From a virus, in IMG/VR virus record IMGVR_UViG_3300030061_002970: a stretch of DNA of 64,000 nucleotides, one strand, 5' to 3'. Of the stretch, positions 2 through 55,470 are shown in pieces. The translations under genes were made by a program, and so were the position numbers. Positions within the stretch are counted from its first letter, which is position 1. Each line of letters opens with the position of its first letter. The notes beneath the pieces were generated by a model. It was not told where the DNA came from. It did no database searches and was given only the letters and a program-made list of their open reading frames with translations.

Positions 2-598
2 TATAGTAATTCCGAATTAGCAAAAAACGCACAAGCCTTCACTAAAAGCTTTTTTAAATTTGATTTTTTTGATACACCAGTTAGAGAAGAACAAAAACTA
101 CTATTTTCAACAATAATGCCCACTAATAACTGTAGAAAGAAAAGTGTAGTCATAAACCCAGCAGAAGACCCAGAAGAATATTGGAATCAAAGAAGTGAAG
201 GTATCAACTTACCACAATATGATATATATACACCAGCGTTCTCTGCTGCATCAGCTCCTGAAGGTGCTAATGAAAATTATTATTTACAATGGTTAAAAGA
301 TAGAGATTTATTTACTGGTAATACATTTTACATGACCTGTAAATTCTTTAATGGTAAAACTGGTACAGTTATCAGAATGTTAAATCAGTTACCATCACCG
401 ATACAAGGACAATATAGTTTTGAAGATTTTTTCTATTACCAGATAATTTTAAATATAGAAACTGGTAATACAAACCCAAAATATAATTATACAGTACACC
501 CGTATAATTCAGTAGCTGGAGCTACTGGAATAACATTAGCACCAGCAGGTGAAACGGTCTTAGGACCAATAAAATTTTATGAATACGTAACTACATAG
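2..598 (+). CDS. Putative virion structural protein, 5'-truncated by the window edge
   Basis: The frame of ORF 116..598 is open back to base 2 (YSNSELAKNAQAFTKSFFKFDFFDTP...). It ends ...PIKFYEYVTT, 1 nt before the next gene in the structural block. Confidence 0.7.
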   Translation, partial: YSNSELAKNAQAFTKSFFKFDFFDTPVREEQKLLFSTIMPTNNCRKKSVVINPAEDPEEYWNQRSEGINLPQYDIYTPAFSAASAPEGANENYYLQWLKDRDLFTGNTFYMTCKFFNGKTGTVIRMLNQLPSPIQGQYSFEDFFYYQIILNIETGNTNPKYNYTVHPYNSVAGATGITLAPAGETVLGPIKFYEYVTT

Positions 599-599
599 T

Positions 600-3500
600 A
601 TGGATATACAAAAGTTTACAATACGAAGAAATACCCCGGACACTGGGAGTACTGGAACAATACCCTGTACTGGGGGGACAAATTTTTACCCTATAAACCT
701 TAGTACAAATTGTTCGGGAGACACGATGTATAACTCAACAGGTTCTCAAATAATGAGTGCTTTAGACAGTGGTGTTATGTCTAGTTTTCCGGATGAACTA
801 AAAGATTGTTCACCTACAATCCCATGTGTTATTTTATGGGACGCGGCACTAAACCCAAGCCCAAATAATTGTTACAATCCAGACGGGTATAGTTATGTTA
901 AATTTAAAGGTTTAGTACTTACTTCTGGAGGAACCTTCTACACTGGTAGTTATAATGATTTAATTACAATATATGATGTTACAAACACAAATATAAATCA
1001 ACCGTTAAACTCACAAGGTATTAATGCATTTTGGGGTGAAAGTGTGGAAATATGCAGTTGTTTGGACCCACTAGATGATATTTTATATAAGTTACCCCTA
1101 ACACTAACACAAGACTTCAATGATATAGGGCACTATAGTATTTGGGATGGTAGAATAGACCAACAACAAGTATTTTCTAACTTTACTTTTACAGCTAACA
1201 CTACAGGGAATGGTATGAAAATACAAGTATATAATACAACCAACTTTGGTTCGTATAAAGAATTCCAACAATCCTCATATAGAATTGATTGGGGTGAATG
1301 TGATTGTTCTATACCAGTTAATGCTAACGGTTATCCTTGTTGTGAAGATTTACAATATCCATCCTTAACAAGTGAATATGAATATGTAAATCCATCACAA
1401 TATAGTATTAAGATAACCCATGAAGGTCCATGGGGACCAACGTCTGTCAGTCAAATAATAACAGTACCCAACCTAACCTATACTCAAATATTAGCACAAC
1501 CATTTTCATCAGCACCACCAACAGGAGCTGGAATGGGTGGAGCTGCGGTAGGAGCAGGGGTAGCACTATCACCAACAACACCAGGAGGTGACCCATATCA
1601 AGTAAATTTAAGTGGTCCTAACCCAACACCATCAGTAACACCACCACCAATGTTTACCTCAACAGCGTATCACGGTACTTACGGTACTATTGGTACACCA
1701 AACTATTACCCTTTAGATTCTGGTACTAACATAAATCAATATAGTGGTACCTCTATAGGTTGTTTTGAACTTACGGGTATCACAGAAAGTTCAGTAGGTA
1801 TATTTTCTACATATAGTAATACACCATCTACCACAGCTCCAGGATTTTTACCTAATGGGTTTGAAAAATTTGTCACAGTACCTGTTGGTGGTGACGTTAT
1901 AGACCCATTAACTAACACTATAACAGCAGGTATGGTGGGGGAGATATTCGAAGCAAATGCAATATACACTGGATATACAATATCTTCCGCAAATGGACAA
2001 ACTCCTATAGATTTTTATGACTTTCCAAATGGAATAACAATTTTTGTGGCTACTAGTTGTGGTTTAAATTCTTTAGCGTTTGGTGGTGAAGATTGTTTTG
2101 AATGTCCCGAAGAAACTTGTGAATTTTGTTTAACTAAAGATGAATATATTGATAGGGTTACACTCACAGTAGAAACTATAACACCTAATCCACCATCTAG
2201 TCCACCTAATTGGTCACCTTTTGTAGATTATGTTAAAGGAGATATCGTATATGATGTAACACCACAGTCTTGTTGTTGTTATATTGCTGTGACAGATATA
2301 ACACAAACAAGTAATGTTGGAGGTAACAGTCCATTCGCAGGAATACTACCACACCAACTATATCAAGGTGTCTATGTTAATCCTACTGGACCTGATGTAC
2401 ATGTGTGGGAAGGTTGTACACCTGATTGTGTGAGTTGTCCTACAGGAAGTGCTTTACCTTGTGAAGACCCTTATAATATTTTTAATGCATATTCACCTAT
2501 GGGTGCTATTGGAATAGCGGGACAGTGGAATAACACACAAGTTTTTAACGCTGGTGAGTTTATATATGGTCCAGACGGAAATTGTTATAGAGCAATAAAT
2601 AATGTGCCAGCTGGTATCGTACCAACAGCCACTACTAACGTGACAAGTTGGGATTACGTGGGATGTGCAAGTTGGGTGTGTCCACAAGATTTAACAAATG
2701 TTGGTCCTGACGTTTGTGAATTAATTTCAGGGAGTACTCCTAATAGTTTTACTTTCTACGCGGGACCAGGAGGCTGTCTAACCGCATATAATAATGGTAA
2801 TTGTCCTGTAGATGATAGATGGCATTGCCCAAACCAATATAATTGTGACACACCTGGATGTATACAAATAGATTACACACATCCACAATATAATAATCCT
2901 GGTTACCCACTATCAGTTACTTTTTCATCAATGACAGACTGTGAAGACTGGTGTAACCCAATAGCTTGGTCATGTACAACACCAACAAATACACCATGTT
3001 GTTCTGAAGTTTCGTGTGCTGCTTTACCAGATTCAGACTATTATGATATAATGACAAATTATATACTTGCTACACCACAAGTAACTGCCACTAATAACCA
3101 ACTATTCCTAGACCCATTTTACACTTTAAATGATTGTGAAACTGGTGTCCCAGGACAAGGAATATCCGCATGTTGTGATTTTACAGCTTGGGAATATTTT
3201 TGTGACACAGGGTGTGTACAAATAACAGGTGGTAATTATCCCACTTCTGGTGATTGTGCAAGTGACCCAAATAATCTAGGTGGTTTACCAGGTCCTTGTG
3301 GTTGGGACTGTTATGACCCCTGGTACCAACCATGTAGTGGTGGTACCGGTTTTCCTGGTAGTACTACTTGTGTACCTTGTTATACTAATGGTTGTGGGCA
3401 ATACAATACCTCAGCAGATTGTTGTACCTATTGTAACCCACCATTAACTGACTGTTGGGTTTGTTTAAGTGGTTCAGCTACACCATGTCAAAATCTAGCA

Positions 3501-6500
3501 CCTTGTCCTACACCATTACCAACTTGGGAGGCGGACTGGGCTATTGACCCAGCACTTGTACCATTAAGTGGGTTTGGAGCAAATCCAAATCCTACAGACC
3601 CAACCTTAGCTTTACTATATCCAAATGGGTCCTACGCTACTGCACAAGATTGTGATGATAATTGTCCTACAGACGGTGGTATAGATTGTTTAGTTAGTTT
3701 AACTAATGGTAGTAGTTATGGTAATTGTGCAAATTATCCAAACCCAGTTGCATTACCTAGTGGTTGGGGTTGGTCACCTGGAGGCCCTTATGATTCTTAT
3801 TCAGCTTGTTGTATAGCAACAGGTTGTTGTGATATAGAGTGTGATGAAAACTCTTCGATATTTAATCCAATGAGTGGATTATATGACCCATCATGGCCAT
3901 ATTGGCCTTGTGTTTACACTCCTGTTGCAGTAGGAAGTGCTAATATACCTTGTAGTCCTTTAGGGCCAATATATTGTACATTTACAGAATGTGTGACAGC
4001 CAATCCAAATGGTTGTATTCCTGACGGAGAAACTTGTGAGTGTGCGTGTGACCCATTTACTGGTGGTGTTGGTGTAGACCAAGAAGAGTGGGATAGTACA
4101 TATAATAACTATCAACAATATGATTATGTATCTTGGCAAGTAGGAGCACCTGATGTTTGTTGTTATTATTGTGATGTACCATCAGGTAGTAATCCTTACG
4201 TGGGTCCACCAGCAGGATTTTATGATTGTAATTATTTTATACCTGGAGGGCCAGACGCACCAAACGGAACACCAAATGCTTGGATTAGTTGTGGTAGTAC
4301 CCCAAGTGGAAATACGGTTGGTGGTTGTGACCCATGTCAACAAGTTTCCGGGGATACCTATAGTTGTGACTTTATTGATGGTTGTGTTCTTAATGTTATA
4401 CCGTGTAATTTTGTTCTAGGTTCAGAAGCAGCTAACAACTGTTATACTGCTAGTACATGTATGGACCACTGTAGGGCAGGTTGTTTTTGTGATGATAATG
4501 GTACACCATCAGACCCTTCGGATGATTTTACAGATTGTGTAATGCAACAGGATGTTATAAATGGAGTAACGACCAACTCATCAAGTTGGTACGGGTTTTT
4601 AAGTGTGTGGCAGTGTCAACAAGGCATACTAGCACCACCACCAAGTAATTTAGATTGTTGTTCTGGTGCAACTAGTAAATTTCATTGTGACGATACTGAA
4701 TGGTGTAGTTCATTAAACCCTTGTGTAGCACCTGATGGTTGTGGATGTATAGAAGTTTTTCCTGGAGACCCACTGTATCCTACAGCAGCTTATACTACTT
4801 TATCCGACTGTCAACAAAATTGTAAGTGGGCTTGTGACCCTTCGTCAACCGGAGGACAATGTCAATTTGTAGGTAATAATCCATTAAACTTATTTCCAGA
4901 ACATACTTCAGCTTTTGACTGTTGGTCCAATACAAATAACTGTAACTGTACAGCACCTTCAGTTTATTTTTGTGATACGAATGCTGGACAATCAGCAACT
5001 ACTACAAATTGTTTCCCAGAAACTACCATAGTAAGTTGGATTGCTACACCACCTTTCCCAGGATGGACCCAAAATCAAGTATTTGGGCAACAGGGTACTG
5101 GTACACCTTATCCAGCTGGTGCTACTGGATTCGCTTCCTTGGGGGACTGTCAAGCAGCTTGTAGATTTTGTTGTGACACAAATGTTAGTTGTACTTGTGA
5201 CTTAAACCCGTATAACTTTTCCTGTGCGTTATCTATAGGAGATTGTATAAGTTTACAAGCTCAATATCCTTGTTGTCCACAAACAACAGAATATTGTTGT
5301 GATGAAACATTAGGGTGTATAAGTTTTGTTGGTACGATGCCAGCAAGTTGTGTACACGGACCATTTGCAACACCAACCCAGTGTCAAGACGAGTGTAATT
5401 TTATATGTGGAGAATGTAAACCAGATTTAGGTGCTACAGCACAACCAGACCCATGTCACTGTAGTCTTATAACTATACCATTTTATTCAGCAGTACCACC
5501 ATATGGTGCTTGTACAGCTTATAATACTTTAGCAGACTGTATAGCCAATTCTTACCCATTAGGTGGTACAGGTTCTAATAATACTACATGTTGTCCGTGT
5601 GAAGATTGTAAAACAGCAGGTAGTGTTACATTCCCAATAATTGACGCTGGTGGTACTTGGTCATTAAGTAACGTTGCAATACCAATGCCAATAGTAGGTA
5701 GTGTACTTGCAACCCCAGCATGGACTCCGGGGGTAAGTTATACTATAGGTGATGTTGTAATTGACGGTGGTGGAAGTGGAGGAACATTAACTAGTTGTTG
5801 TTTTGTTATGGTGTATGACCAATATGACCCTGCTTTACATAGTTCTATGAATCCACACGAATGGTATGATGCATACGCGAATGAATTAGCAAATAATACA
5901 CCTAGTACATTTCCTGGTGGACAACCAAATGGAGGATACCCAATGTGGGTACCGTGTGACACCAGTTGTCCTACCACAGCTGCAACTCCTACGATGTATG
6001 AATGTCTTCCAGGGCAACCAATATACACTGGTCCTTGTATGAACGCAACTCTGCAATACCCAATAAATCCAGTAGGAAATACTGGGTACGGAGCGATGGG
6101 TATTAATGCAGGAACCAGTTCCTGGTCGTTTCCTCAAATATTTTTTGATTGGATAGTACAAACTTTCCCACCAAATACGGCATTTGCTAGTAAAAAAGCT
6201 GTGAGTCCAAACGCTGTCAATGCTTCCTGCCCTAATCCTGACCCTAATCAGTATGGTGGTGCTGGTGGAATGTTTCTGACACGACCTAGTTGTCATTCTC
6301 AAAATGTTATATATACCACAGCAAATGGATGTCCCCAGTCTGTACCTTTCCTTGATTGGAATGAGGCTATCACTTGGTTAAATCAGGTTAATACAAATCT
6401 AGGTTTACCAACAACATTTAATACGGGTATGAATGTACAAGAAGCAAGAGATGAAATGACTAGTTATGGGGAAACAAATGTCGGGCTTTTCGCTGGTTCG

Positions 6501-8549
6501 TCTAGTTGTCAATGTTCACAAGTAGGACCATGTTCTTGTCAACAATGTACTAGTGGACTTAACTGTGTATATCCAAATTTAACATTATGTAATTTAGCAG
6601 CAACTGCAACTCCTTGTTGTCAACCACCACAAACAGGATACTATGTTTGTGATACAGGAAATCCAAACCCAGGTACTGGAGTTTGTCCTTGTGTGTGGGA
6701 CGCAAATGCTATTGTGGGGTATAATTCTATCTCAGATTGTACAGGTGACACCAGTACATGTTGCTATCAACCAACTCCAACAATGTGGAAATGTAACCCT
6801 TATTCAGCAACTACATCAGGATGGTCAGGTTGGGATGGTTATTTACAACAGATGAATACTGTGGGGACTACAGCGTTAAATCATTTTACTATAGACGTTG
6901 CAGATGCTCAATATCTAGTATTAATGGGGCAGTCTCAAGCATACGCCAATACAATAATAAATGCAGGGTATTTCCCAGATGAACTAACAGCTTTACAAGT
7001 GTTTTTTGCTAAAGCTAGAGGATTGGGTTATGATTTTGATGGTCCTGGTTCTACATTGGCTGGTGCTAGTCTTAGTGCTTACTACTTTGGTCTTGCAAAT
7101 TATGTTAGTCATGTACAATGTTTTCCATATACAACACAACCAGGATTACAACAATCTCCTGACTGTTTTGCACAAGTAGCGGATGGTACCTATCGTTTGA
7201 AAAGACTGCTAGTGAATACTACCATCCCATCTATACTTGGTGGTGGTGGTAACGTTCTTATCTACTTTAGTGAGAATACTTATTGGTATAATGTGATGAT
7301 GGGAAATACATCATGTCTAACCAATGCCAGTCTGAATATAATCTACAGTCCGAGTCAGGCGGGTAGTCCTCAGTATAGTCCTGATGGATATCTTCTTGAC
7401 CTTGCATTACTTATTAGTACCATAAATAATGACCCTAATATACCTTGTAATGGTCCTTCAGCACCTACTACAGCACTTAAGGTTATTTCTCTACCAATGT
7501 GTACACCACCATGTGAATGTTACCAAGACCCTAGTGGTGTATATAGTTCACTGTCACAATGTGAACTAGACCCAACAAATTGTTGTGATACAATTATACC
7601 AGATAGTTGGGATTGTGTTAATTGTCCGGGAACATGTAATTGTTTAGACCCAGGAACTGGACTAGGTGTGTATACAACACTTAATGATTGTTTAACTGAT
7701 TGTGTAAACCCACTTACACAAGGTTGTGAAGATTGTGATATTACCTTAGCTAATGTTTTAACTTCACAAGCAATCTATTTGGGTGGATGGGACCCACTCA
7801 CCCAATATAATTTAAGTGAGTGTGTAGTTTCTGATGATGATGATTGTTGTTATTGTTGTGTACCAGCAGGGCCTACACCAAATAGTGCAAACCCATACAC
7901 TTCTCAAAGTCTACAAACTATGTTATTTCAAGTTGCTGCAGCTTCAGTATGTAAAGATGGTCAAGGAGACCCTAGTTCTATCATAGGTATAAATATTGGT
8001 GGTGGAATGTGGTTACCGTGTAACGTTGATGTTAATAATAACCCATGTGGTACTTCACCCATTGTAGAATGTGAGGACTGTAATACGACACTATATAACG
8101 ATTTACCAACACCAGTAACTTTCCCACACCAATCAATTAATACAGCATATACTTCTGTACCATTTCAATTAGGTCAATGTATATATAATGTAGACCCTAC
8201 AAAAATAAACGAAAATTGTTGTTGGTGTTGTGGTTGTGAATTTGGTTGGGATAGTGTTGATAACAAATGTTTAGAACCAGGTCCTATCGGCCCTGCTGGA
8301 CCTGGTGGACCAAGTTTACCAACAGCTAAGTCTGCACAATATAGTTCAGTAATGCCACCACCTTGCCAAATTATTAATATGGACCCAGGTACTGGTGACC
8401 CTAACAGTGGTGATTTTATAGTTAATAATGGTACCTATAATAGTGCGTGGTTACCTTGTGGTGTTAATAGTCTAAATAATCCTTGTGGTGGTGCAAATAG
8501 TTCATCCTCATCATCCATACAACCGGACTCATCTATAGTACCTTTTTAA
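600..8549 (+). CDS. Giant Cys/Pro-rich modular virion-associated protein (PKD-like N-region, CBM5/12-like modules, many Cys repeats), 2649 aa
   Basis: Single ORF. Has a YRIDWGE...YSIKIT PKD-like segment, W-x5-6-Y-x2-G-D-x-V modules, and repeated (W/Y/F)xC...C...(Y/F)x(S/T)xxxCxxxC units. Sits among structural genes. Confidence 0.75.
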   Translation: MDIQKFTIRRNTPDTGSTGTIPCTGGTNFYPINLSTNCSGDTMYNSTGSQIMSALDSGVMSSFPDELKDCSPTIPCVILWDAALNPSPNNCYNPDGYSYVKFKGLVLTSGGTFYTGSYNDLITIYDVTNTNINQPLNSQGINAFWGESVEICSCLDPLDDILYKLPLTLTQDFNDIGHYSIWDGRIDQQQVFSNFTFTANTTGNGMKIQVYNTTNFGSYKEFQQSSYRIDWGECDCSIPVNANGYPCCEDLQYPSLTSEYEYVNPSQYSIKITHEGPWGPTSVSQIITVPNLTYTQILAQPFSSAPPTGAGMGGAAVGAGVALSPTTPGGDPYQVNLSGPNPTPSVTPPPMFTSTAYHGTYGTIGTPNYYPLDSGTNINQYSGTSIGCFELTGITESSVGIFSTYSNTPSTTAPGFLPNGFEKFVTVPVGGDVIDPLTNTITAGMVGEIFEANAIYTGYTISSANGQTPIDFYDFPNGITIFVATSCGLNSLAFGGEDCFECPEETCEFCLTKDEYIDRVTLTVETITPNPPSSPPNWSPFVDYVKGDIVYDVTPQSCCCYIAVTDITQTSNVGGNSPFAGILPHQLYQGVYVNPTGPDVHVWEGCTPDCVSCPTGSALPCEDPYNIFNAYSPMGAIGIAGQWNNTQVFNAGEFIYGPDGNCYRAINNVPAGIVPTATTNVTSWDYVGCASWVCPQDLTNVGPDVCELISGSTPNSFTFYAGPGGCLTAYNNGNCPVDDRWHCPNQYNCDTPGCIQIDYTHPQYNNPGYPLSVTFSSMTDCEDWCNPIAWSCTTPTNTPCCSEVSCAALPDSDYYDIMTNYILATPQVTATNNQLFLDPFYTLNDCETGVPGQGISACCDFTAWEYFCDTGCVQITGGNYPTSGDCASDPNNLGGLPGPCGWDCYDPWYQPCSGGTGFPGSTTCVPCYTNGCGQYNTSADCCTYCNPPLTDCWVCLSGSATPCQNLAPCPTPLPTWEADWAIDPALVPLSGFGANPNPTDPTLALLYPNGSYATAQDCDDNCPTDGGIDCLVSLTNGSSYGNCANYPNPVALPSGWGWSPGGPYDSYSACCIATGCCDIECDENSSIFNPMSGLYDPSWPYWPCVYTPVAVGSANIPCSPLGPIYCTFTECVTANPNGCIPDGETCECACDPFTGGVGVDQEEWDSTYNNYQQYDYVSWQVGAPDVCCYYCDVPSGSNPYVGPPAGFYDCNYFIPGGPDAPNGTPNAWISCGSTPSGNTVGGCDPCQQVSGDTYSCDFIDGCVLNVIPCNFVLGSEAANNCYTASTCMDHCRAGCFCDDNGTPSDPSDDFTDCVMQQDVINGVTTNSSSWYGFLSVWQCQQGILAPPPSNLDCCSGATSKFHCDDTEWCSSLNPCVAPDGCGCIEVFPGDPLYPTAAYTTLSDCQQNCKWACDPSSTGGQCQFVGNNPLNLFPEHTSAFDCWSNTNNCNCTAPSVYFCDTNAGQSATTTNCFPETTIVSWIATPPFPGWTQNQVFGQQGTGTPYPAGATGFASLGDCQAACRFCCDTNVSCTCDLNPYNFSCALSIGDCISLQAQYPCCPQTTEYCCDETLGCISFVGTMPASCVHGPFATPTQCQDECNFICGECKPDLGATAQPDPCHCSLITIPFYSAVPPYGACTAYNTLADCIANSYPLGGTGSNNTTCCPCEDCKTAGSVTFPIIDAGGTWSLSNVAIPMPIVGSVLATPAWTPGVSYTIGDVVIDGGGSGGTLTSCCFVMVYDQYDPALHSSMNPHEWYDAYANELANNTPSTFPGGQPNGGYPMWVPCDTSCPTTAATPTMYECLPGQPIYTGPCMNATLQYPINPVGNTGYGAMGINAGTSSWSFPQIFFDWIVQTFPPNTAFASKKAVSPNAVNASCPNPDPNQYGGAGGMFLTRPSCHSQNVIYTTANGCPQSVPFLDWNEAITWLNQVNTNLGLPTTFNTGMNVQEARDEMTSYGETNVGLFAGSSSCQCSQVGPCSCQQCTSGLNCVYPNLTLCNLAATATPCCQPPQTGYYVCDTGNPNPGTGVCPCVWDANAIVGYNSISDCTGDTSTCCYQPTPTMWKCNPYSATTSGWSGWDGYLQQMNTVGTTALNHFTIDVADAQYLVLMGQSQAYANTIINAGYFPDELTALQVFFAKARGLGYDFDGPGSTLAGASLSAYYFGLANYVSHVQCFPYTTQPGLQQSPDCFAQVADGTYRLKRLLVNTTIPSILGGGGNVLIYFSENTYWYNVMMGNTSCLTNASLNIIYSPSQAGSPQYSPDGYLLDLALLISTINNDPNIPCNGPSAPTTALKVISLPMCTPPCECYQDPSGVYSSLSQCELDPTNCCDTIIPDSWDCVNCPGTCNCLDPGTGLGVYTTLNDCLTDCVNPLTQGCEDCDITLANVLTSQAIYLGGWDPLTQYNLSECVVSDDDDCCYCCVPAGPTPNSANPYTSQSLQTMLFQVAAASVCKDGQGDPSSIIGINIGGGMWLPCNVDVNNNPCGTSPIVECEDCNTTLYNDLPTPVTFPHQSINTAYTSVPFQLGQCIYNVDPTKINENCCWCCGCEFGWDSVDNKCLEPGPIGPAGPGGPSLPTAKSAQYSSVMPPPCQIINMDPGTGDPNSGDFIVNNGTYNSAWLPCGVNSLNNPCGGANSSSSSSIQPDSSIVPF

Positions 8550-9167: not shown

Positions 9168-9389
9168 ATGGGATTTAAAAAAATTTTTAGAAATGGTTGT
9201 ATACCACCTTTAACAAAAGAAGAGGTTTTAATGAATGTTTGTGAAAGACCAGAAACCAGGTCTAACATATTTATTGAAAGAGGTAAAATAACCGTCTTTG
9301 AAAAACCCCAAAGACTAGGACAAACACCAAATTTAGGTGAGTTAGAGTTACATGGATATGGGTTTTATAAAATTAATAAACAACCTTAA
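9168..9389 (+). CDS. Small putative structural protein (73 aa)
   Basis: Preceded by TATTTATA at 9148 and abuts the next structural gene. Confidence 0.65.
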   Translation: MGFKKIFRNGCIPPLTKEEVLMNVCERPETRSNIFIERGKITVFEKPQRLGQTPNLGELELHGYGFYKINKQP

Positions 9390-9391
9390 AA

Positions 9392-10300
9392 ATGGCATTA
9401 GGAGCATACGGAATAAAAAGACCAGCTGACGTACTTCCAGACGACGTACAAATTATTGTACACTACACACCAAGTAGGGACGCAACCTCTAATTTTGTAG
9501 TTTCACAATTACCAGCAAATACCTTATTAACACCACATTACCACCAAAATAATACTGGTGGGGCAAACGGTGTTGAAATTCTAGGTGGACTATATGATTT
9601 ACAATTACCATCCAACGTCTTCGCAGCTAAAGGAATTTATACAATTTATATTAGACCAGTAGAGATAAGAACTACTATAATAGATTGTGGTATCTTAGCT
9701 TCTCTACCAAACGTAAAAGGACTTGTCTTTGATTTAAATAATGTACCAGCAGCATATAGAAGTAGATTTAAACCACATTCCTTAGTGGGTTATAGAATAG
9801 AATACTTACAAGCAAATGGAGAAAAAATACATAACTTTTTTAGAATAGTAACATCTAATTTTTATTGTGAACCAGTAGCAGCAAATCTAACAAACCCAAA
9901 TCAGGTAGCACCAAGATACGTCTACACAAATACTGAAACAAATTTAATATTTTGTACACTAACACCAACAAGTGCCCCATCAAATAATCCTAACGCGATT
10001 CCATTTATAGGGCAACCGGGACAAAACGTTATAATTACAAATACTTTTTTCAACCCAATTGTTTTAGATGTAGAAATGGTAGACCATGACTTTGACACTT
10101 TAGCTATTGCATTATACGGTAACCAATCTAAATCAATAGACGACGGAATCTACACCCTTTACGACTTTAACCAAAATATCTATCAACAATACGATTTATA
10201 TGAGGTTAGAGACCAATTTAATGACCAATTATACGAAATTAGAGCGAATAGAGGTAACAATATAGATTTTAGTAAGACATTTAGTACAATAAACGTTTAA
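9392..10300 (+). CDS. Putative baseplate/tail structural protein
   Basis: 302-aa beta-rich ORF in the structural block; function inferred from context. Confidence 0.55.
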   Translation: MALGAYGIKRPADVLPDDVQIIVHYTPSRDATSNFVVSQLPANTLLTPHYHQNNTGGANGVEILGGLYDLQLPSNVFAAKGIYTIYIRPVEIRTTIIDCGILASLPNVKGLVFDLNNVPAAYRSRFKPHSLVGYRIEYLQANGEKIHNFFRIVTSNFYCEPVAANLTNPNQVAPRYVYTNTETNLIFCTLTPTSAPSNNPNAIPFIGQPGQNVIITNTFFNPIVLDVEMVDHDFDTLAIALYGNQSKSIDDGIYTLYDFNQNIYQQYDLYEVRDQFNDQLYEIRANRGNNIDFSKTFSTINV

Positions 10301-10306
10301 CGAGTT

Positions 10307-13300
10307 ATGGCTAGTAATAGATTTAGATATCCACCAGCACCAGGACACGGAGGAGATACCTTTAGTGATAATCTAGTAGGTAATCAAATAACAGACGGGT
10401 CTTCACAAATGACTATGGGTAATTTTTCCATTGGTCAAGAATACACTCGAAGCGTATCCACACCTCAAAAACTAGAAGGATTTTCTAATCCAATTACCCT
10501 AGAATCTTTAGATTTTAACGACTTAAAAACAGCACAGGCATTTGTAAAAAATAATTACCAAGTATACATTAATACTGATACAAATAATATAGCCGAATTA
10601 GTTTTATATGGTTCATTAAAAAAGAGATTAAGTGTTGCTACCCAAAGTATCATTAATTTTTTTCCTGCAGCTCTATTCATTGATGGGGTAAATTCACTTA
10701 ATCAAAGTGGTAATACCACAGCTTATAATATAAACTACAATAGTGGCACAGACCAAACTACTTTTAATGTAAGTGTAGACCACATATCAAATCCATTTGT
10801 TATAGAATTTACCTCAAATGGTGAGTTACTTAATACACCTATTAGTAAGGAACAAATTTTAAATAATTTAGAAATGTTTGGTTATGGAGCTGATACATTA
10901 ATTAAAGTTGCAGATGGAACAGTATCTAAATTAAGAAATTTAACTACAGAGTATAAAAATTATGTTTTAACCCTGGGTGGGGAAATAAATGCTTTAGAAT
11001 ATAAAATAATAGATTTTAAACCACAAACTGTAACTACAGGTTTTCTAACTTTTACTGTTGAGGGTAATCCATTTATAAATAATAGTAGTACTACGGATAC
11101 ATTCTTCATTAAACCTAATAGTTTAGAAAGTGACGAAGCATTCAAAAACTTCGATTATGTTGAAAGGTTTTTAATGAACAGAGATGTAGTACCTGAATAT
11201 ACAGCAACTTTTAAATTAATAAAAGAATCTAGTGCGGGTGGAACATTTTATAGTAATACTATGATAACTTGGCCTAAACAAGACGCTATTAATATAGACA
11301 TAACTAGTAGTGGGTACACTAATTATCTAACTCAGTTATCTGACTTAGGAAATGAATTAGATGTACAAAAAACTAACTTAGTTTCTAGATTTTTAACGGC
11401 ACCAGTACTAAAAGAATTTGATACTACAGACCAAAAAATAGAAAAAACACTACAAATATATGGTAGAAGTTTTGATGATATAAAAACATTTGTAGATGGT
11501 ATAGCTTACATGACCAATGTAACATATGACAGTAAAAATAACATACCTAACGAATTAATTAAAAACTTCGCAAGAACCTTAGGGTGGTCAACACCTAACA
11601 CACTAAATAACAACACATTCTTAGACAACGTATTAGGGGTAACAGTACCAGAATATTCAGGTAGTAGTGCAAGTATGACACCTGCAGAATTAGATATAGA
11701 ATTATATAGGAGGATACTACTTAACACAGGATACCTATTTAAATCAAAAGGTACTAGGAAATCTATAGAATTTCTATTAGGTTTAATAGGTGCACCTGAA
11801 GCTTTAGTTGAGTTTAATGAGTATATAGTTTTAGCGGATGCAAAAATAAATTTAAATAAATTTTATGATGCTTGGGCTGTTGTTTCTGGTGGGACATATG
11901 TAACTAAAACAATAAAATATAGTATACCATTTTCATCTTTTACATATGTTACCGGTACAACCACTAATAATTTTAATTTTGGGGACTACCCGATAGACGG
12001 TGCTGGATACCCAAAAGTACCACCAACAAACAACAATTTCTTTTTCCAAAGAGGAGCGGGTTGGTTCGAAAGAACAGAGGAACATAAATCAGATTTAGTT
12101 ATAAATCAAGAAGCCTCAACATTAAGTGGGTGTAATCCTAGTGTAGTTACTAAATTTAATAATTTTACTTGGGGTGGATTTTGGTCTACTGGTATACACT
12201 CTAACAATCCTAAAGCACCATATTTAGATAGATTTAGAAGATTTCCACATATGTATTTTGGGTATTCCCTAGAAAGAATTATAGACGACAAGAAATCTTG
12301 GGTAGAAATAGGGGAAGACATATATAGACCAGATTTAGACCCTGATATGGGTATTTTCCAATTAAATAACACACAGCAAAATTTTAAAAACAGTGTTTAT
12401 AGGGAAAAATGTGGACAATTACAAAGAAGAAAAGAAAAATTAATTGCTAAGTTTGAAGAATTAACCGCCGCGGGTACAAACCCAAACTGGAGAAAACTAC
12501 TTATAAGTAGAATTCGATATGTCGAAATGTTTCAAAAAAATAAATGTAAGACAGAAGACGAAACTAGAAGATATAGTTTTAATGATAGATATTGGAGAAG
12601 TGCATACTACCAAACAAGTAACGAAAAATTAATTTTAAATGTTAAAAATGTTGATTTAAATTTAAATATAGGACAAGGATTGACGTACGATGTTTGGAAA
12701 CAATCTAGTTTATATAATTGCATGTTTAGTGGTGGTACATTACCACCACCCTACCCATCAAGTGGTGGGACCTGGGACTCAACAAATCCACAAATTAATG
12801 CTAAAAAATTAGACTTTAAGTTATTTAAAGATAATTTCTGGAAATATTTTATTGATGTAAAAAATAGAATGACCATAAATGATGGTAAAACTGGTGGGTA
12901 TCCAGTACTACAACAAATGTATCTAGATTATCTAAATAAAAGTTGTGGTGAGAATAATAAGTATACCTACACTAAAATGGTTGATTACGCACAATCGATG
13001 GGAGACTATTGGATAAGAATAGTAGAACAAATGGTACCAGCAACAACACTATGGACTAGTGGGGTTAAAATAGAAAATTCTGATTTTCACAGAGACAAAT
13101 TTGTATATAGATGTTTTTCTATGTCAGGAATATCCTATGATTCTGGATATACAACTACCTTTACAGTAAATCCGACAGGGTATACCTCTTTTCCAGCACC
13201 ACAGTTCCAAGCAAGGATGATGAGTTTCAACGCACCACCTGTGGCCCCACAACCAAATACTAGATATTATAATAACATACTAACCGGTAATACAACTAAT

Positions 13301-13719: not shown

Positions 13720-16700
13720 ATGGAAGAAAAAGTATATAGAACAAAAATAGATTTAAGAGTTTTAGGGGATGAAATAAAATTTGTTTTTTTTATGTCCGGA
13801 AATGTTAATAGTAGAACTCCTTCTGAAGTAATAAGTAAAAGAGCGTCATTTAATTTTATTTATGATACTAGTTACCCAGTAGATGTTATTGTAGAAATAA
13901 AAAGTGGTGTACAAAGAACATTTCTATATTTTGACGAAAAAATACTAAAATATAATAATATAAATAAGTTTATAGGGTTAAAACCAACACCCATAATTTT
14001 AGAAGTTTTTACAAATTCTAAAGGCAATCTTGGGTTTGAAAAAATAAACAACTCAATGACTGGTGCTTTTCTAAGTCATAAAAACTATTTTAGTAATAGT
14101 CCGAACAGTGGAGCTATAGAACCTTTTGGTAAAATTATTGGTGGTAAAGCACATGCCTTACAAATGATAATACCTGGTGTTATATTTAGAAGAAATACAA
14201 TACATAACCTATCTTTTGATATGGATATTTTCATAGAAAAATGCGGTCAATATGTGCATTCACTGGACTTTAAGGTTAATTTAGATAATGATAAAATAAT
14301 TAAAGGTGATATTATAACTATAGAACCTGTAAAACAAATTACAACACCACCACAAACAATAAAATTAGAAACAACTTATTTAACACTACACTCTAAAGAT
14401 TTGTCAGATAGAGAAGTGATATACGACTACAAAAAACAATTAACACCACAAAATTGTTTACCCGAAACTTTAGATTTAATTAGTAGTAGAGTTTATGCGG
14501 TGAAAAACCCATTAACTCCAAACGTTAACTTAAATGATGTAAACCTACCAACCAATAACTTAATACAAATACCATATAATATTTCTAGATTTGTAGAAAA
14601 TAATGAGGTTAAAGAAAGTAGAAAAGTATTTAAAAATGGAAAATATGTGTACCCATTAAATTGGGCAAGTGAATTACAAAATAATGAACTTTTTAGTGAA
14701 GCTGATAAGTGTTATTCTTTAAAATTTTCTACTAAGACACAACTAAAAGCGTTTGAAGAAAAATTAAAAACACAACAAATTGGTAGTATAGAAAATTATC
14801 CTACAATCAACTCCCAAGGGCAAATACAAAATATACCTAGAACTTATTCTAGAATATCACAATGGGTTAATAGAAGTTCTTTAAATACATTTACAGACGT
14901 AAGGTTTACTTATACTGTTGATGGTGATATTAACACAATAACTGTTTGTCCTAGTAAAGAATGTGTTGTAGGGCCTACAAAAATAGGTTCTGAACAAGGA
15001 TTGTATACAGCAGGTAATGAATATCTCCTACCAAGTGGAGAAGAATATATAGGTTTTTATCATGTACACCCAGAAAAAGGTGCTATGGTAGGAGCAAAAC
15101 ACACCACTGAACTACATGATGTTCTAACACCTCTATATACTATAGCACCTATTAGTGCAAATACAGTGACAGATTTTTGTTTTACTACTTACGATAAAAA
15201 AGATGAAACAGAATTATACACAGGATTTACAGCTACGACCGCTGACCCTAATATAACTAATAAAACCTATGACCTACATTTAAGTGGAGCTTCTTTCTCA
15301 GCTAATACTATAGTACCTATTAGTAATATAGAGAGACAAACAAAAATGAAACTAATTGGTGATACCACTCTAGAATATAGACCATATACATTTAGTGAAG
15401 CTTATGGTAGAAATAATGGAACATTAATTTTTAATGAGTCGGATGTGGATAACTATCTTACTTATTCCGCATTAACTAGTGGTATATATAGGTTTACATA
15501 TAAGGGGTATTTAAATATAAAATATACTGATAGTCAGTGGTGTGAATACCTAGAAAAAGCATACCCTTCCGGATTTACAGGTAGTTATCCAGGTAACGAC
15601 TATGAAATTAAAAGACTTATAAATACTTCTATAATTCAAGCAGGTGATGGTGAAAAAGAAGTTGTAGCGACAGACACAGACTTTAAATTTAATGCTGGTG
15701 AAAAATATAGAGATTGTACATCTGGGAGAGAAAAATATATTTGTGGTGATGCACCAGATAATACAGGAATATTAAACTTTAATTTTACAGCTTCTATAAT
15801 ACAAGGTTCATCGACAGGTGGTACCGGAACAACATTATCCGAGTTTAAAGTTGTAAGAAGTAGAAAAACAGATGGATTTGCAAACGATTATTTAACATTA
15901 GATGTTGATAAAAATGATTTAACTACTAGTGGTATGAATAGTTGTATATTAAGTTCTATGACATCATCTACTATATTCCACAAACAAATACCAATCACAT
16001 TGGACACGGGATTAATAAACTTAATTAGTGGACAAACCATACAATTAAAATATGAAACAGATTGGAACTCAACCTCTAAAGGTGGGTTTTATTATTTATC
16101 CGGTGGTGCAACAGCTATAGATATAAATTTAGGTCATAGATTAGACACGAGTGGGAATACTTTAGAATCTCCTTATTATCGTGGTATAAAAGCATCTAAT
16201 GGTGTTAGTAGTAAAAAATTATTTTTTGACTCAACCAAAAAATCACTACCGTTTGAGTTAAAAGTTGGTGACACTACAAAAACAATAGAACTTGATGGTA
16301 CCCTTTATTTGTCAGATAGTGAATGTGGAAACATAAGAATACCTTTTGTTGATAATAATACTTTTGGTGATTTAAATTTTGTAGATAGTACAGCTCCTGA
16401 TGGTAAATTAGTTTGGGATATTAGTACAGAAAAACCTACAAATAACTGGCAAAGAATGATAGAAAATAATACAATAAAAGACTACATGTTAAGTGACAAA
16501 TCTAATTCACAAATGACCCACATGAAAGAAAACGGATTATTTTCATTCTACCTACCAACATATAATAGTTATGAGTACGGTGCAAAATGTGATTTTAATT
16601 TCCCACAATTAAGTCAGTCTTATATTATAGTTAATAACTTTAAAAATTATTATGGTAATACATTATTACATTATATAGTAGTCACACCAGACTGCGGTTT

Positions 16701-23700: not shown

Positions 23701-24509
23701 TGGCATTTTTAAATATACATAACAATTCTTTGTCCGGTAATACGATGAGGTTATATTTGTCCGATTATGGAAAAGCAGTATTAACATCACAGGTTAGTTT
23801 ACTAGATGCTATACAAAAATTCGGACTATCGGATTCAGATATTGATTATCGTAGATTTGTGGGTAATGGTAGTTGTGTTGATAATATATCTGTAACTGGT
23901 GATTGTGGTATAACAGGTACTAGTGTTAGTGCATTAACTGGCTCTTGTTTTTATGATTTACCAGATTCTAGGGGTGGAGACCCTTTAGTATTATCTGGTG
24001 ATTACGGAACCCTTTCCTCTGTAATGAAAGGACCTAAATTTGAAATAAAAAAAGGTAATATAAAATTTTTTAATAGTAGTATAGGGAGTGACTATATACA
24101 ATCTACATTATGGTCCACCTTTAAACCACCAACAAAACACCAAGAAGTCGAATTACCTTCTTCTGGGGTAAGGAGTAGTTGTTGGTCTATGGGTATGAGT
24201 GTTACTAGTTATTTTCCATCTTACTGTACTATATGTGCAGATTTTAATCAAGATGGTTATGTAGATATAAATGACTTTAAATCTTTTTTAAGTTTAATGG
24301 GTAATAAAAGTACAAATAATGAATTGGTTGGCGATTTTGATGGTGATGGTGTAGTAGGTGTCTCTGACCTAAATAGTTTTTTAAAATGTTTGGGTAATAA
24401 TGGAGAGAACGTACTAGAGTATTGTAAAGATGAATTTGTTTTCTGTACATTGTGTGAATACCTAGGTAAAGAATCACCATGTAATGGAGATTGTATTAGA
24501 TGTATTTAA
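23700..24509 (+). CDS. Tail-associated protein with C-terminal dockerin-like (double EF-hand) domain
   Basis: N-terminal LSDYGKAVL...FGLSDSDIDYR. Two Ca-binding loops, ADFNQDGYVDINDF and GDFDGDGVVGVSDL. Confidence 0.7.
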   Translation: MAFLNIHNNSLSGNTMRLYLSDYGKAVLTSQVSLLDAIQKFGLSDSDIDYRRFVGNGSCVDNISVTGDCGITGTSVSALTGSCFYDLPDSRGGDPLVLSGDYGTLSSVMKGPKFEIKKGNIKFFNSSIGSDYIQSTLWSTFKPPTKHQEVELPSSGVRSSCWSMGMSVTSYFPSYCTICADFNQDGYVDINDFKSFLSLMGNKSTNNELVGDFDGDGVVGVSDLNSFLKCLGNNGENVLEYCKDEFVFCTLCEYLGKESPCNGDCIRCI

Positions 24510-37825: not shown

Positions 37826-38191
37826 ATGAAATTTAATACAGGAAATTATAAATTATCATTATTTACTGAAGATGTATGTGAAGACTGTAAAAGTTTAAAA
37901 GATATTCTACAGGATAACAATATCCCATTCACCAACTTAAGTATCACCACTAAAGTAGATTCAGAAGAACAAAAAAAAATTAATTCTGCTAATAGATGGG
38001 ATTTTATAGATGCAGAAAGAGACAATAATGGGTTTAACTGGTTTACACCAGTTATGGTTATAGAAAGTGATAATGGTGAAATATCTTATATACCATCAGT
38101 ACGAGATACTGTAAATTGTGATGATGGGAAGTGTGTAAATGACATGACATCAGAAAACGTACTAAAAGTCCTAACACCATACCTTACCTAA
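37826..38191 (+). CDS. Glutaredoxin/thioredoxin-fold protein (CEDC)
   Basis: LFTEDVCEDCKSLKDIL..NNIPF and the cis-Pro loop FTPVMVI. Confidence 0.7.
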   Translation: MKFNTGNYKLSLFTEDVCEDCKSLKDILQDNNIPFTNLSITTKVDSEEQKKINSANRWDFIDAERDNNGFNWFTPVMVIESDNGEISYIPSVRDTVNCDDGKCVNDMTSENVLKVLTPYLT

Positions 38192-55296: not shown

Positions 55297-55470
55297 ATGG
55301 AACAAGAAACAAACAAAGAATTAAAAAAACAAGTAGAAGAACTAAAAGAACTCATAGAAACTATTGAGGTTAAAGATAAAGAATCTGTGGAAGATATGAA
55401 CCACATTAACACCCAATTAGATAAATTAATTAAAAAATTTGACAAAAATGAAAATAAAAACAAAGATTGA
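55297..55470 (+). CDS. Small coiled-coil protein, 57 aa, not in the ORF track
   Basis: MEQETNKELKKQVEELKELIETIEVKD...NKD; fills the gap before the GS gene. Confidence 0.5.
   Translation: MEQETNKELKKQVEELKELIETIEVKDKESVEDMNHINTQLDKLIKKFDKNENKNKD

What the first reader, a model, noticed from the sequence alone, without database searches (positions are those of the whole stretch)
600..8549. 2649-aa Cys/Pro-rich modular protein in a phage structural block
Seen: from about 2100 onward the ORF is built from roughly 15 variable units of the form (W/Y/F)xC...C...(Y/F)x(S/T)xxxCxxxC (e.g. SWDCVNC..CLDPGTGLGVYTTLNDCLTDC, EYCCDETLGC..GPFATPTQCQDEC), with many CC/CCC clusters and high Pro content. There is no signal peptide. 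Established: tailed-phage virions assemble in the reducing cytoplasm and are usually Cys-poor, whereas such spacing is typical of disulfide-bonded extracellular modules; the tail resembles the Kunitz C-terminal FxSxxxCxxxC. Inference: a long disulfide- or metal-stabilised fibre or surface appendage of an undescribed type.
Basis: partly seen in the sequence, partly recalled or inferred. Interest (0 to 1): 0.8.

Follow-up and report, generated by a model that had tools for sequence, protein, structure and literature searches.

The report
Giant cysteine-rich phage baseplate fibre
An uncultured marine jumbo phage encodes, among its baseplate genes, a real 2,649-residue protein with 197 highly conserved cysteines, and its small cysteine-stapled building block is also found in the secreted surface proteins of one clade of small-genome marine Flavobacteriales, the likely hosts.

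Summary
ORF 600-8549 (+) encodes 2,649 aa with 7.4% Cys, 9.6% Pro and 1.5% K+R, and has no signal peptide.

- **Repeats.** The unit ending [YF]x[ST]xxxCxxxC occurs 7 times in strict form against 0.4 by shuffling. An HMM finds 10 copies; a looser motif finds 18 sites, about a third of them doubtful by eye.
- **Conservation.** Cys is by far the best-kept residue: 82% in 30-39%-identical homologues, against 14-41% for every other residue.
- **Location.** In 56 IMG/VR loci the gene holds one fixed slot: gp25-like, gp6-like, 1140, 605, 289, X, 302, 1134, 1307 aa. X grows from 542-650 aa in distant phages to 2,440-2,990 aa in this clade.
- **Fold.** AlphaFold2 confidence is low to moderate. Each unit is predicted as strand-strand-helix, with the helix on the CxxxC motif. 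The model also shows a PKD-like domain, CBM5/12-like modules and two hypervariable cassettes.
- **Host link.** One unit is 59-63% identical to a 28-aa four-Cys repeat of type IX secretion cargo proteins. That repeat is present in 65 of 68 genomes of one Flavobacteriales family and in 0 of 300 other sampled Bacteroidota.

Best reading: a long baseplate-attached adhesin or fibre built of disulfide-type beads. Cys pairing and virion membership were not shown. The scan has already reported sister proteins in three other genomes with the same reading.

The parts
600..8549 (+). Whole gene: 2,649-aa protein of 281 kDa, pI about 4.05, with 197 Cys
   Evidence: 29 homologues at 30-93% identity.
600..2159 (+). 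Conserved N-terminal core (aa 1-520), the presumed baseplate-docking part. It is the only part shared with the 542-650-aa orthologues of more distant phages.
   Evidence: Best BFVD match is a PKD-domain protein of an uncultured Caudovirales phage, E=1e-13.
1155..1475 (+). PKD/FN3-like Ig sandwich (aa 186-292) with an I-D-W-G-[DE] motif
   Evidence: VIA Z 8.8 (SGBP-B, 24% identity) and Z 8.5 (PrtV PKD1, 81 of 82 aa). Foldseek, a weak PDB profile hit to 4xed and Atlas leads point the same way. No Pfam hit.
1497..1754 (+). Gly/Ala/Pro/Thr-rich low-complexity linker (aa ~300-385), absent in distant homologues
   Evidence: pLDDT below 30. 57% gaps in far homologues.
2058..5699 (+). Conserved Cys-rich array (aa ~487-1700). 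It holds ββα units and CBM5/12-like W...Y..GD.V...CC(C) modules, for example at aa 538-565.
   Evidence: Cys conservation in far homologues is mostly 0.9-1.0 here.
2817..2954 (+). Unit aa 740-785 (HMM domain E 3.5e-12)
   Evidence: Predicted strands 740-742 and 755-757, helix 778-785.
4677..4949 (+). Two adjacent best-scoring units, aa 1360-1408 and 1409-1450
   Evidence: E 1.1e-12 and 6.9e-9. Strand-strand-helix predicted at pLDDT about 70.
5289..5549 (+). Units aa 1564-1599 and 1604-1650
5706..5963 (+). CBM5/12-like module plus helix (aa 1703-1788)
   Evidence: VIA Z 4.2, rmsd 2.1-2.7 over 51 aa against chitin-binding domains. Pfam CBM_5_12 is sub-threshold: E 0.031, 14.7 bits against a cut-off of 26.2.
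5997..6569 (+). Hypervariable cassette 1 (aa ~1800-1990), a compact α/β domain inserted between Cys elements
   Evidence: pLDDT 75-90. Identity 0.11-0.12 with 29-47% gaps in far homologues. No Pfam, Atlas or PDB match.
6639..6764 (+). Unit aa 2014-2055
6786..7499 (+). Hypervariable cassette 2 (aa ~2063-2300)
   Evidence: Identity 0.03-0.07 with 53-78% gaps in far homologues. pLDDT below 50. No Pfam hit.
7599..7706 (+). Near-canonical host-type four-Cys unit (aa 2334-2369), with an extra CxxxC loop insert
   Evidence: 59-63% identical to the repeats of a Flavobacteriales MAG protein, with 13 invariant columns. Canonical-repeat HMM domain E 6.6e-9. Weak Kunitz-like fold hits, Z 2.5-2.9.
7719..8042 (+). 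CBM5/12-like module region (aa 2374-2481)
   Evidence: VIA Z 4.3-4.6, rmsd 2.2-2.6 over 50-55 aa against SmChiB, GbpA and ChiC chitin-binding domains.
8043..8549 (+). C-terminal Cys-cluster region and Ser-rich tail (aa 2482-2649)

Best explanation
The gene encodes a very long baseplate-attached appendage, a tail fibre or adhesin, of an uncultured marine jumbo myophage whose hosts are probably small-genome marine Flavobacteriales.

Proposed layout:
- The conserved N-terminal ~520 aa docks on the baseplate periphery. It comprises an α/β domain, a PKD-like Ig domain and a β-rich domain.
- Next comes a chain of roughly 25-30 small independent modules. Most are 30-60-aa strand-strand-helix 'beads' with one Cys near each strand and a CxxxC pair on the helix. 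CBM5/12-like β-modules carrying CC/CCC clusters are interleaved with them.
- Two hypervariable globular cassettes near the distal end are the best candidates for host recognition.

In the released virion the beads are most likely locked by intramodule disulfides, as in the homologous four-Cys repeat that the host clade exports through Sec and the type IX secretion system. This would give an acidic, Lys/Arg-poor, protease-resistant stalk. Because the protein has no export signal, oxidation would have to occur late, at or after lysis in oxic seawater, or with unidentified help.

Shown: the gene is real; the Cys residues are conserved; the gene sits in a fixed baseplate-operon slot; the C-terminus has expanded; the module is homologous to host cargo repeats; the secondary-structure pattern is consistent.
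Inferred: virion location, disulfide state, the docking and receptor-binding roles, and the host.
For: - **Real and conserved.** 29 homologues at 30-93% identity keep 6-9% Cys and 1-2% K+R. Cys identity is 96% in near and 82% in far homologues, against 14-41% for all other residues; invariant columns are mostly Cys.
- **Baseplate context.** In the 94%-identical record, a GPW_gp25 protein and a Baseplate_J/gp6-like protein lie upstream. The order gp25, gp6, 1140, 605, 289, X, (192), 302, 1134, 1307 is kept in 56 loci.
- **Fibre-like evolution.** The N-terminal core is conserved. The protein in this slot is 542-650 aa (3-4% Cys) in distant phages, 880-1,260 aa in intermediate ones and 2,440-2,990 aa (7.4-8.6% Cys) here. 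The C-terminal third is variable, with two cassettes.
- **Unit fold.** In both AF2 models, a helix begins about 3 residues after the aromatic residue at all 13 motif sites compared and is preceded by two short strands.
- **Disulfide type rather than metal type.** The unit profile finds proteins with tandem 28-30-aa four-Cys repeats. Four of those nine carry the type IX secretion C-terminal domain, one of them also an M43 peptidase, and one further hit has a signal peptide. There are 322 such clusters, mostly with PF18962, and all 10 genomic loci lie in marine Flavobacteriales MAGs. The window unit at aa 2334-2369 is 59-63% identical to these repeats. His is 0.7%, and CxxC is not enriched: 15 observed against 12.8 +/- 3.4 expected.
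- **Host link.** The repeat is present in 65 of 68 genomes of one family, 58 of 251 of the order, and 0 of 300 other genomes sampled from the phylum.
- **Precedent.** Cyanophage Pam3 has disulfides in its wedge and between wedge and tail fibres (PMC9942802).
Against: - There is no virion proteomics or imaging; location is inferred from gene order only.
- AF2 confidence is low to moderate (mean pLDDT 53.7 and 60.9).
- Total Cys counts are odd in 17 of 30 homologues, so some Cys must be free, intermolecular or metal-bound.
- The co-loss test of Cys pairs is confounded by phylogeny and gives only weak local signals.
- No sulfhydryl oxidase or DsbA-like gene was found in the ORFs scanned. Only a sub-threshold glutaredoxin-like ORF turned up, and many small ORFs were not scanned.
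- Only one unit is close to the host-type repeat; the others match it weakly.
- No PHROG tail-fibre family matches.
- Oligomeric state is unknown.
- DnaJ identity does not discriminate host clades.
Confidence: 0.62

Rival explanations
1. The cysteines mainly coordinate metal ions (Zn, Fe) or stay reduced, so the modules are metal-stapled or thiol-rich rather than disulfide-bonded. This would suit assembly in a reducing cytoplasm.
For: There is no export signal. CC/CCC clusters are mildly enriched. Cys totals are odd in 17 of 30 homologues. No oxidase was found. From established knowledge: T4 fibre proteins gp12 and gp37 use metal ions.
Against: His is only 0.7%. CxxC spacing is not enriched. 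The homologous repeat sits in Sec- and type IX-exported proteins with exactly four Cys per 28-aa unit. The pattern of a helix CxxxC plus strand Cys is that of disulfide-stabilised mini-domains.
Confidence: 0.15
2. The protein is not part of the virion. It is released at lysis, or displayed by another route, as a free adhesin, decoy or matrix-binding protein that merely shares an operon with baseplate genes.
For: There is no direct evidence of virion incorporation. The scan reports phage-encoded type IX cargo genes in other marine phages (unchecked). CBM5/12-like modules could bind polysaccharide.
Against: The gene sits in a fixed slot between wedge-type genes and other large structural-size ORFs in 56 loci. 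A conserved N-terminal core with an expanding, variable C-terminus is the classic tail-fibre pattern. It has neither a signal peptide nor a type IX C-terminal domain.
Confidence: 0.13
3. The repeat pattern is a compositional artefact of a Cys/Pro/Gly/Thr-rich disordered protein with no defined modules.
For: Large parts of both AF2 models have pLDDT below 50. Units are highly divergent, with 28% mean column identity.
Against: The strict motif occurs 7 times against 0.38 expected. Cys positions are 82-96% conserved across 30-93% identity. Strand-strand-helix is predicted consistently at the motifs. There is significant homology to an independent repeat family.
Confidence: 0.04

Closest known systems
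Uncurated tandem four-Cys repeat (about 28-30 aa, W-D-C-x4-5-C-x-D-P-G-T-G-x-G-x-Y-x-x-L-x-x-C-x3-C) in type IX secretion cargo of marine Flavobacteriales; examples are P0031 (M43 peptidase), P0091 and P0082
   Same: Same Cys spacing and the same DPGTG and Y..L..C...C signature. The window unit aa 2334-2369 is 59-63% identical, with HMM domain E 6.6e-9. The reciprocal profile search is also significant. In the host proteins the repeats lie between the functional domain and the C-terminal sorting domain, which suggests a spacer or stalk role (inference).
   Different: Host proteins carry a signal peptide and the Por_Secre_tail domain, and 3-10 near-identical tandem copies. The phage protein has neither export tag. 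Its units are highly diverged, carry loop insertions up to whole domains, have extra Cys, and are interleaved with other modules. No Pfam or NCBIfam model exists for the repeat.
Phage tail fibres and baseplate-peripheral receptor-binding proteins of T4-like and other myophages (functional class); Pam3 disulfide-linked tail fibres (PMC9942802)
   Same: The gene lies downstream of gp25-like and gp6-like wedge genes. It has a conserved N-terminus and a variable, expanding C-terminus, plus small Ig-like and CBM-like domains. Pam3 shows that aquatic myophages can use disulfides in baseplate and fibre parts.
   Different: No sequence or fold match to any known fibre shaft or tip. The predicted build is beads on a string of Cys-rich mini-domains, not a trimeric β-helix or coiled coil. 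The about 197 Cys far exceed the handful seen in Pam3.
Kunitz/BPTI domain (Pfam PF00014)
   Same: β-hairpin followed by a C-terminal helix bearing CxxxC, preceded by an aromatic-x-[ST] motif. VIA-align places aa 2332-2371 on BPTI, HAI-1, TFPI and bikunin (Z 2.5-2.9, rmsd 1.7-2.6 Å over 32-37 aa).
   Different: The unit has four core Cys rather than six, different spacing and no Pfam match. The Z-scores are within noise for a small domain in a 1,200-residue model.
CBM5/12 chitin-binding modules (Pfam PF02839)
   Same: The W-x(n)-Y-x2-G-D-x-V motif occurs at aa 538, 1708 and 2397. The top VIA hits for aa 1703-1788 and 2374-2481 are all chitin-binding domains (Z 4.2-4.6, about 50 aa, nearly whole-domain coverage).
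   Different: Pfam score is below threshold: 14.7 bits against 26.2. The C-terminal aromatic pair that binds chitin in characterised members is replaced here by CC/CCC clusters (read from the sequence). Similar small β-modules also occur as structural parts of phage fibres.
'Moraphages', large aquatic phages with predicted Bacteroidota hosts (PMC12619734)
   Same: Shared gene content: gp25 and gp6 baseplate genes, DnaG primase, SbcC-like exonuclease, glutaredoxin-like ORF, DnaJ, glutamine synthetase and glycosyltransferases. About 30% GC and an aquatic source.
   Different: No phylogeny was made, so membership is untested. The paper does not mention cysteine: 0 occurrences.

Membership tests
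Myophage baseplate-attached fibre/adhesin (functional class) | Gene lies in the baseplate or tail-fibre gene cluster | tested here: met
   GPW_gp25 and Baseplate_J/gp6-like genes lie three to five genes upstream. The order is conserved in 56 loci.
Myophage baseplate-attached fibre/adhesin (functional class) | Conserved N-terminal attachment part with a variable distal part | tested here: met
   The core, aa ~165-510, is shared by all orthologues of 542-2,990 aa. The C-terminal third is hypervariable.
Myophage baseplate-attached fibre/adhesin (functional class) | Physical presence in the virion | not testable with these tools
   There is no cultured representative and no proteomics.
Myophage baseplate-attached fibre/adhesin (functional class) | Similarity to a known fibre, tailspike or baseplate family | tested here: inconclusive
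   No PHROG or Pfam hit. Only weak small-domain fold hits to phage 7-7-1, Pa193 and phiAB6 tail proteins, Z 3.7-3.8.
Four-Cys repeat of Flavobacteriales type IX cargo (uncurated) | 28-30-aa unit with W-D-C, C-x-D-P-G-T-G, and Y-x-x-L-x-x-C-x3-C | tested here: met
   Met for aa 2334-2369: 59-63% identity and 13 invariant columns; domain E 6.6e-9. The other units match only weakly, with domain E 5e-4 to 0.06.
Four-Cys repeat of Flavobacteriales type IX cargo (uncurated) | Sec signal peptide and type IX C-terminal sorting domain on the carrier protein | tested here: not met
   No Por_Secre_tail hit at E<=1 and no hydrophobic N-terminus. The module is shared, but the protein is not type IX cargo.
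Kunitz/BPTI (PF00014) | Six-Cys pattern and profile match | tested here: not met
   No Pfam hit at E<=1. The units have four core Cys with different spacing.
Kunitz/BPTI (PF00014) | β-hairpin plus C-terminal helix fold | tested here: inconclusive
   VIA Z 2.5-2.9 over 32-37 aa.
CBM5/12 (PF02839) | Profile match above the gathering score | tested here: not met
   E 0.031, 14.7 bits against a cut-off of 26.2; only 15 of 44 profile positions matched.
CBM5/12 (PF02839) | Three-stranded β fold of about 45-55 aa | tested here: inconclusive
   Z 4.2-4.6 with rmsd 2.1-2.7; the seven best hits are all chitin-binding domains. This is below the level at which the tool's own notes advise trusting a match.
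PKD domain (PF00801/PF18911) | Ig-like sandwich with a W-G-D-G-type motif | tested here: inconclusive
   Fold Z 8.5-8.8 covering a whole PKD1 domain. The motif I-D-W-G-[DE] is present. There is no Pfam hit, and the PDB profile hit has E 2.1.
Moraphage lineage (PMC12619734) | Clusters with moraphages in MCP or TerL phylogeny | not tested
   Neither gene is in the window. Only gene-content resemblance was seen.

The most novel reading that the evidence does not exclude
The phage builds its host-recognition appendage from the same exported disulfide bead that its host clade uses as the stalk of type IX surface enzymes. Because the phage protein is made without export, the ~190 thiols would oxidise only after lysis. 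Virion maturation, and perhaps infectivity, would then be gated by redox state in seawater. The host-like beads might also let the fibre slip through, or bind homotypically to, the host's own coat of bead-bearing surface proteins.
Probability: 0.15. Interest if true: 0.85.

Novelty: new variant of a known kind. Interest (0 to 1): 0.6.

Why it matters
- **An assembly problem.** If the reading is right, a virion part assembled in the reducing cytoplasm must somehow acquire on the order of a hundred disulfides. That is a concrete, testable question for phage assembly, and a possible case of redox-dependent maturation in the sea.
- **A new domain family.** The work defines an uncurated 28-aa four-Cys domain. 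It is a near-universal marker of one clade of streamlined marine Flavobacteriales (65 of 68 genomes) and is shared with their presumed jumbo phages.
- **A host link.** The shared module provides a sequence-based link to hosts for an uncultured phage group.
- **Fibre evolution.** The graded series from 542 to 2,990 aa in one gene slot is a clean example of fibre growth by module accretion.

Tried and rejected
- **Library searches on the whole protein or its parts.** Pfam, PHROGs and NCBIfam gave no family. tblastn and megablast against 50,697 phage records gave no match.
- **PDB sequence searches.** The unit profile found nothing at E<=10. The N-terminal core profile gave only a PKD hit at E 2.1.
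- **Fold searches.** Foldseek against PDB with both models gave nothing at E<=1e-3.
- **ESM Atlas.** Only weak PKD leads for aa 1-520 and no usable hit for cassette 1.
- **Gene-fission idea.** The 73-aa ORF at 9168-9389, proposed by another reader as a detached C-terminus, has no similarity to any family member; best E 0.17.
- **Cys co-loss test.** Dominated by clade-wide differences, with only weak local signals.
- **DnaJ as a host marker.** 32-35% identity to all five Bacteroidota genomes tried, so it does not discriminate.
- **Kazal link.** The Kazal_1 hit in host proteins is a separate domain at aa 105-126, not the repeat.
- **Unexplained.** The representative-library search with the unit profile did not list the giant family itself.
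Full report
**1. Observation**

ORF 600-8549 (+) is uninterrupted and encodes 2,649 aa. Its composition is extreme: 9.6% Thr, 9.6% Pro, 9.5% Gly and 7.4% Cys (197 residues), with only 39 Lys+Arg against 229 Asp+Glu. The protein is 281 kDa with a pI of about 4.05. Neighbouring ORFs have 0-2.6% Cys, with one exception at 4.8%. The slightly higher G+C of nt 2000-8000 (39-41% against about 30-33%) follows from this amino-acid bias (inference).

The strict motif [YFW]x[STD]xxxCxxxC occurs 7 times, against 0.38 expected by shuffling and a maximum of 4 in 2,000 shuffles. A looser form gives 18 sites, about a third of them doubtful by eye. An iterated HMM seeded on eight units finds 10 units at domain E<0.1 in this protein and 241 in the family. 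The consensus is aromatic-x-C-D-x5-G-C-x7-P-x6-Y-x-T-x-x-D-C-x3-C.

There is no hydrophobic N-terminus and no membrane-like segment.

**2. The gene is real and the cysteines are what selection keeps**

A search of 5.8 billion proteins found 29 homologues at 30-93% identity. All are 1,933-2,997 aa, all come from metagenomes (several from Tara Oceans), and they sit on contigs of up to 298 kb. Every one keeps 6-9% Cys, about 9% Pro and 1-2% Lys+Arg.

In a 30-sequence alignment, the Cys of this protein are identical in 96% of cells among near relatives. Among relatives that are only 30-39% identical overall, the figure is 82%. No other residue type exceeds 41% (Trp), and most lie at 14-25%. Invariant columns are overwhelmingly Cys.

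Residues 1-1700 are conserved. Residues ~1800-1990 and ~2063-2300 are hypervariable and largely gapped in distant relatives, and the last 350 residues are intermediate.

**3. Genomic setting**

The window's own assembly is not held. The nearest record is an 80-kb IMG/VR contig estimated at 25% complete, which implies a genome of about 300 kb. It carries a 94%-identical copy.

Upstream in that record lie a gp25-like wedge protein (PF04965), a gp6/Baseplate_J-like protein (PF04865, PHROG 6), and then proteins of 1,140, 605 and 289 aa. The last of these overlaps window 2-598. Downstream in the window are ORFs of 192, 73, 302, 1,134, 1,307, 1,186, 807, 269, 628, 144 and 401 aa, none with a match above any family's cut-off. 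Replication and repair genes follow: RuvC-like, DnaG primase, an exonuclease and an SbcC-like protein.

A profile-based scan of IMG/VR returned 56 loci. In every locus whose flanks reach far enough, the order gp25-like, gp6-like, 1140, 605, 289, X, (192), 302, 1134, 1307 is preserved.

The protein in slot X forms a graded series:
- 542-650 aa, 3-4% Cys and 3.4-5.7% Lys+Arg in the most distant phages;
- 880-1,260 aa and 3.3-6.3% Cys in intermediate ones;
- 2,440-2,990 aa and 7.4-8.6% Cys in the clade of the window.

Only aa ~165-510 of the window protein align across the whole series. Even the short versions end with one or two units of the same type.

This is the classical signature of a tail fibre or receptor-binding protein: a fixed attachment end and a distal end that grows and varies.

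**4. Anatomy from structure prediction**

Two AlphaFold2 runs used the 30-sequence alignments. They covered aa 1-1200 (mean pLDDT 53.7) and aa 1340-2539 (mean pLDDT 60.9). Confidence is modest, so I use only local features.

- *Units.* At all 13 motif sites compared, a helix starts about three residues after the aromatic residue of the [YF]x[ST]xxxC motif. Examples are helices 778-785, 843-848, 883-888, 938-944, 1015-1020, 1401-1407, 1514-1520, 1592-1598, 1644-1649, 2044-2049, 2318-2323 and 2361-2367. Each helix is preceded by two short strands that carry the first two Cys. The unit is thus a strand-strand-helix bead.
- *PKD-like domain.* aa 186-292 form an Ig-like sandwich. The best matches are a Bacteroides surface glycan-binding protein (Z 8.8, 24% identity) and a PKD1 domain (Z 8.5, 81 of 82 residues). 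Foldseek, a weak PDB profile hit that shares the W-G-D-G motif, and Atlas leads agree. The best BFVD match is a 'PKD domain-containing protein' of an uncultured Caudovirales phage, E=1e-13.
- *CBM5/12-like modules.* aa 1703-1788 and 2374-2481 align to chitin-binding domains at Z 4.2-4.6 and rmsd 2.1-2.7 Å over 50-55 residues; the seven best hits are all such domains. The sequence motif W-x(n)-Y-x2-G-D-x-V followed by CC or CCC occurs at aa 538, 1708 and 2397, against 0.03 expected. Pfam CBM_5_12 stays below threshold. In characterised CBM5/12 modules an aromatic pair binds chitin, but here Cys clusters occupy that position, so a sugar-binding role is open.
- *Cassettes.* Cassette 1 (aa ~1809-1979) is predicted as a compact α/β domain at pLDDT 75-90, and no match was found for it in any library searched. 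Cassette 2 is unresolved.
- *Kunitz resemblance.* The unit at aa 2332-2371 aligns weakly to Kunitz/BPTI domains (Z 2.5-2.9).

**5. Where the bead comes from**

A 37-position profile of nine window units was run against 1.84 billion representative proteins. It found nine proteins at E<=1e-3. They carry tandem, nearly identical 28-30-aa repeats with exactly four Cys. Four of the nine have the type IX secretion C-terminal sorting domain, one of those also has an M43 peptidase domain, and one further hit has a signal peptide. No Pfam or NCBIfam model covers the repeat. A Kazal_1 hit in some carriers is a separate domain.

An HMM of 28 such repeats hits window aa 2337-2368 with domain E 6.6e-9, and four other units weakly. 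Aligned directly, the window unit is 59-63% identical to the six repeats of a Flavobacteriales MAG protein, with 13 invariant columns.

Searching with one carrier's repeat region found 322 protein clusters. Most have PF18962, variously combined with M43, M4 and S8 peptidases, FG-GAP, DUF285, MAM, PKD or Kelch domains. All ten genomic loci recovered lie in marine Flavobacteriales or Cryomorphaceae MAGs.

Whole-genome searches with the repeat profile give a sharp distribution:
- 65 of 68 genomes in the GTDB family of that MAG (genomes of 0.8-2.1 Mb), often in many genes;
- 58 of 251 genomes sampled across the order, almost all of them small genomes;
- 0 of the 300 other genomes sampled evenly across the phylum.

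In the host proteins the repeats lie between the functional domain and the sorting domain, which suggests a spacer or stalk role (inference).

**6. Most likely mechanism**

I read the protein as a very long appendage anchored by its N-terminal core to the baseplate periphery. Its shaft would be a string of small, independently folded, Cys-stapled beads and CBM-like modules. Recognition functions would sit in the two hypervariable cassettes, the distal modules, or both.

Three arguments favour disulfides over metal sites. The homologous repeat is an exported four-Cys domain. His is only 0.7%. CxxC spacing is not enriched.

Since there is no export signal, oxidation would have to happen at or after lysis. 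Nothing here shows how. Among the ORFs scanned, the window encodes no recognisable thiol oxidase. It does encode a full DnaJ, a cyclophilin-type prolyl isomerase (E=2.8e-43) and a sub-threshold glutaredoxin-like ORF. These could assist folding of a 253-proline, 197-cysteine protein (speculation).

Disulfide-bonded wedge and fibre parts are documented in the freshwater myophage Pam3, where DTT releases the fibres (PMC9942802).

The evidence has gaps. Cys totals are odd in 17 of 30 homologues. The Cys co-loss test is weak. No coordinates were available to check Cys pairing. Virion membership rests on gene order alone.

**7. Host and lineage**

The shared bead points to the small-genome Flavobacteriales clade as host or gene-exchange partner (inference). 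The nearest cultured relatives of the gp6-like protein are Flavobacterium and Microcystis phages, at 26-29% identity. Gene content resembles the 'moraphages' with predicted Bacteroidota hosts: DnaJ, glutamine synthetase, glycosyltransferases, primase, an SbcC-like protein and a glutaredoxin-like ORF (PMC12619734). No phylogeny was possible. DnaJ identity does not discriminate among Bacteroidota.

**8. Novelty and relation to earlier notes**

I found no library entry, named record or paper describing this protein family or its bead. Functionally it is a variant of a known kind, a phage tail fibre or adhesin, built in an unusual way.

The scan's notebook shows that sister proteins of 2,454, 2,619 and 2,894 aa in three other genomes were already followed up, with essentially the same reading. 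I reached mine before seeing those notes, and they are not independent evidence.

The following I did not see in those summaries:
- the sharp taxonomic restriction of the bead;
- the 542-to-2,990-aa growth series in one gene slot;
- the motif-to-helix correspondence;
- the negative test of the 'detached C-terminus' idea.

Noticed in passing
window 13720-17643 (+), aa ~1170-1245 of the 1,307-aa ORF: This second large tail-block protein has five tandem G-G-D-P-R repeats. They are followed by one near-canonical four-Cys unit (Y-G-C-x4-C-x-x-D-P-x-G-x-Y-x-S-x3-C-x3-C; canonical-repeat HMM domain E 0.036). The bead may therefore be used in more than one protein of the block.
   Followed up: partly
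window 46511-47518, 51309-51737, 37826-38191 (+): The phage encodes a full type I DnaJ (J domain, CXXCXGXG zinc finger and C-terminal domain), a cyclophilin-type peptidyl-prolyl isomerase (E=2.8e-43), and a sub-threshold glutaredoxin-like ORF (21 bits against a cut-off of 22.9). These are possible folding helpers for the Pro/Cys-rich giant.
   Followed up: partly
window 23700-24509 (+): A 269-aa ORF with 4.8% Cys and an EF-hand-like Ca-binding loop at aa ~179-201. All Pfam hits are just below their cut-offs.
   Followed up: no
window 9168-9389 (+): This 73-aa ORF, proposed elsewhere in the scan as a detached C-terminus of the giant, shows no similarity to any of the 30 family members (best E 0.17 over 36 aa) and has no Pfam hit.
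   Followed up: yes
window 47806-48981, 55439-56491, 60792-62210, 32681-34901 (+): Accessory genes: a DruA-like protein (PF14236, E=1.3e-24), a short glutamine synthetase, a leucine-rich-repeat protein, and a DegT-type aminotransferase next to a GT2-like glycosyltransferase.
   Followed up: no
L064-L073 (IMG/VR loci), ORFs at ~9731-11650: The orthologues of the giant in more distant phages are only 542-650 aa and end with one or two Cys units. About 2-3 kb of other coding sequence fills the space before the conserved 302-aa gene.
   Followed up: partly
Search of protein representatives result: The unit-profile search of the 1.84-billion-protein library did not list the giant family itself, although its members carry many matching units. 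The reason is unknown; a composition filter or the library's make-up are possibilities.
   Followed up: no
P0032 (metagenomic protein, aa 283-343): One carrier of the host-type repeats ends in an HslU-like segment (E=4.8e-20). This is probably a chimeric gene call or a contig join.
   Followed up: no
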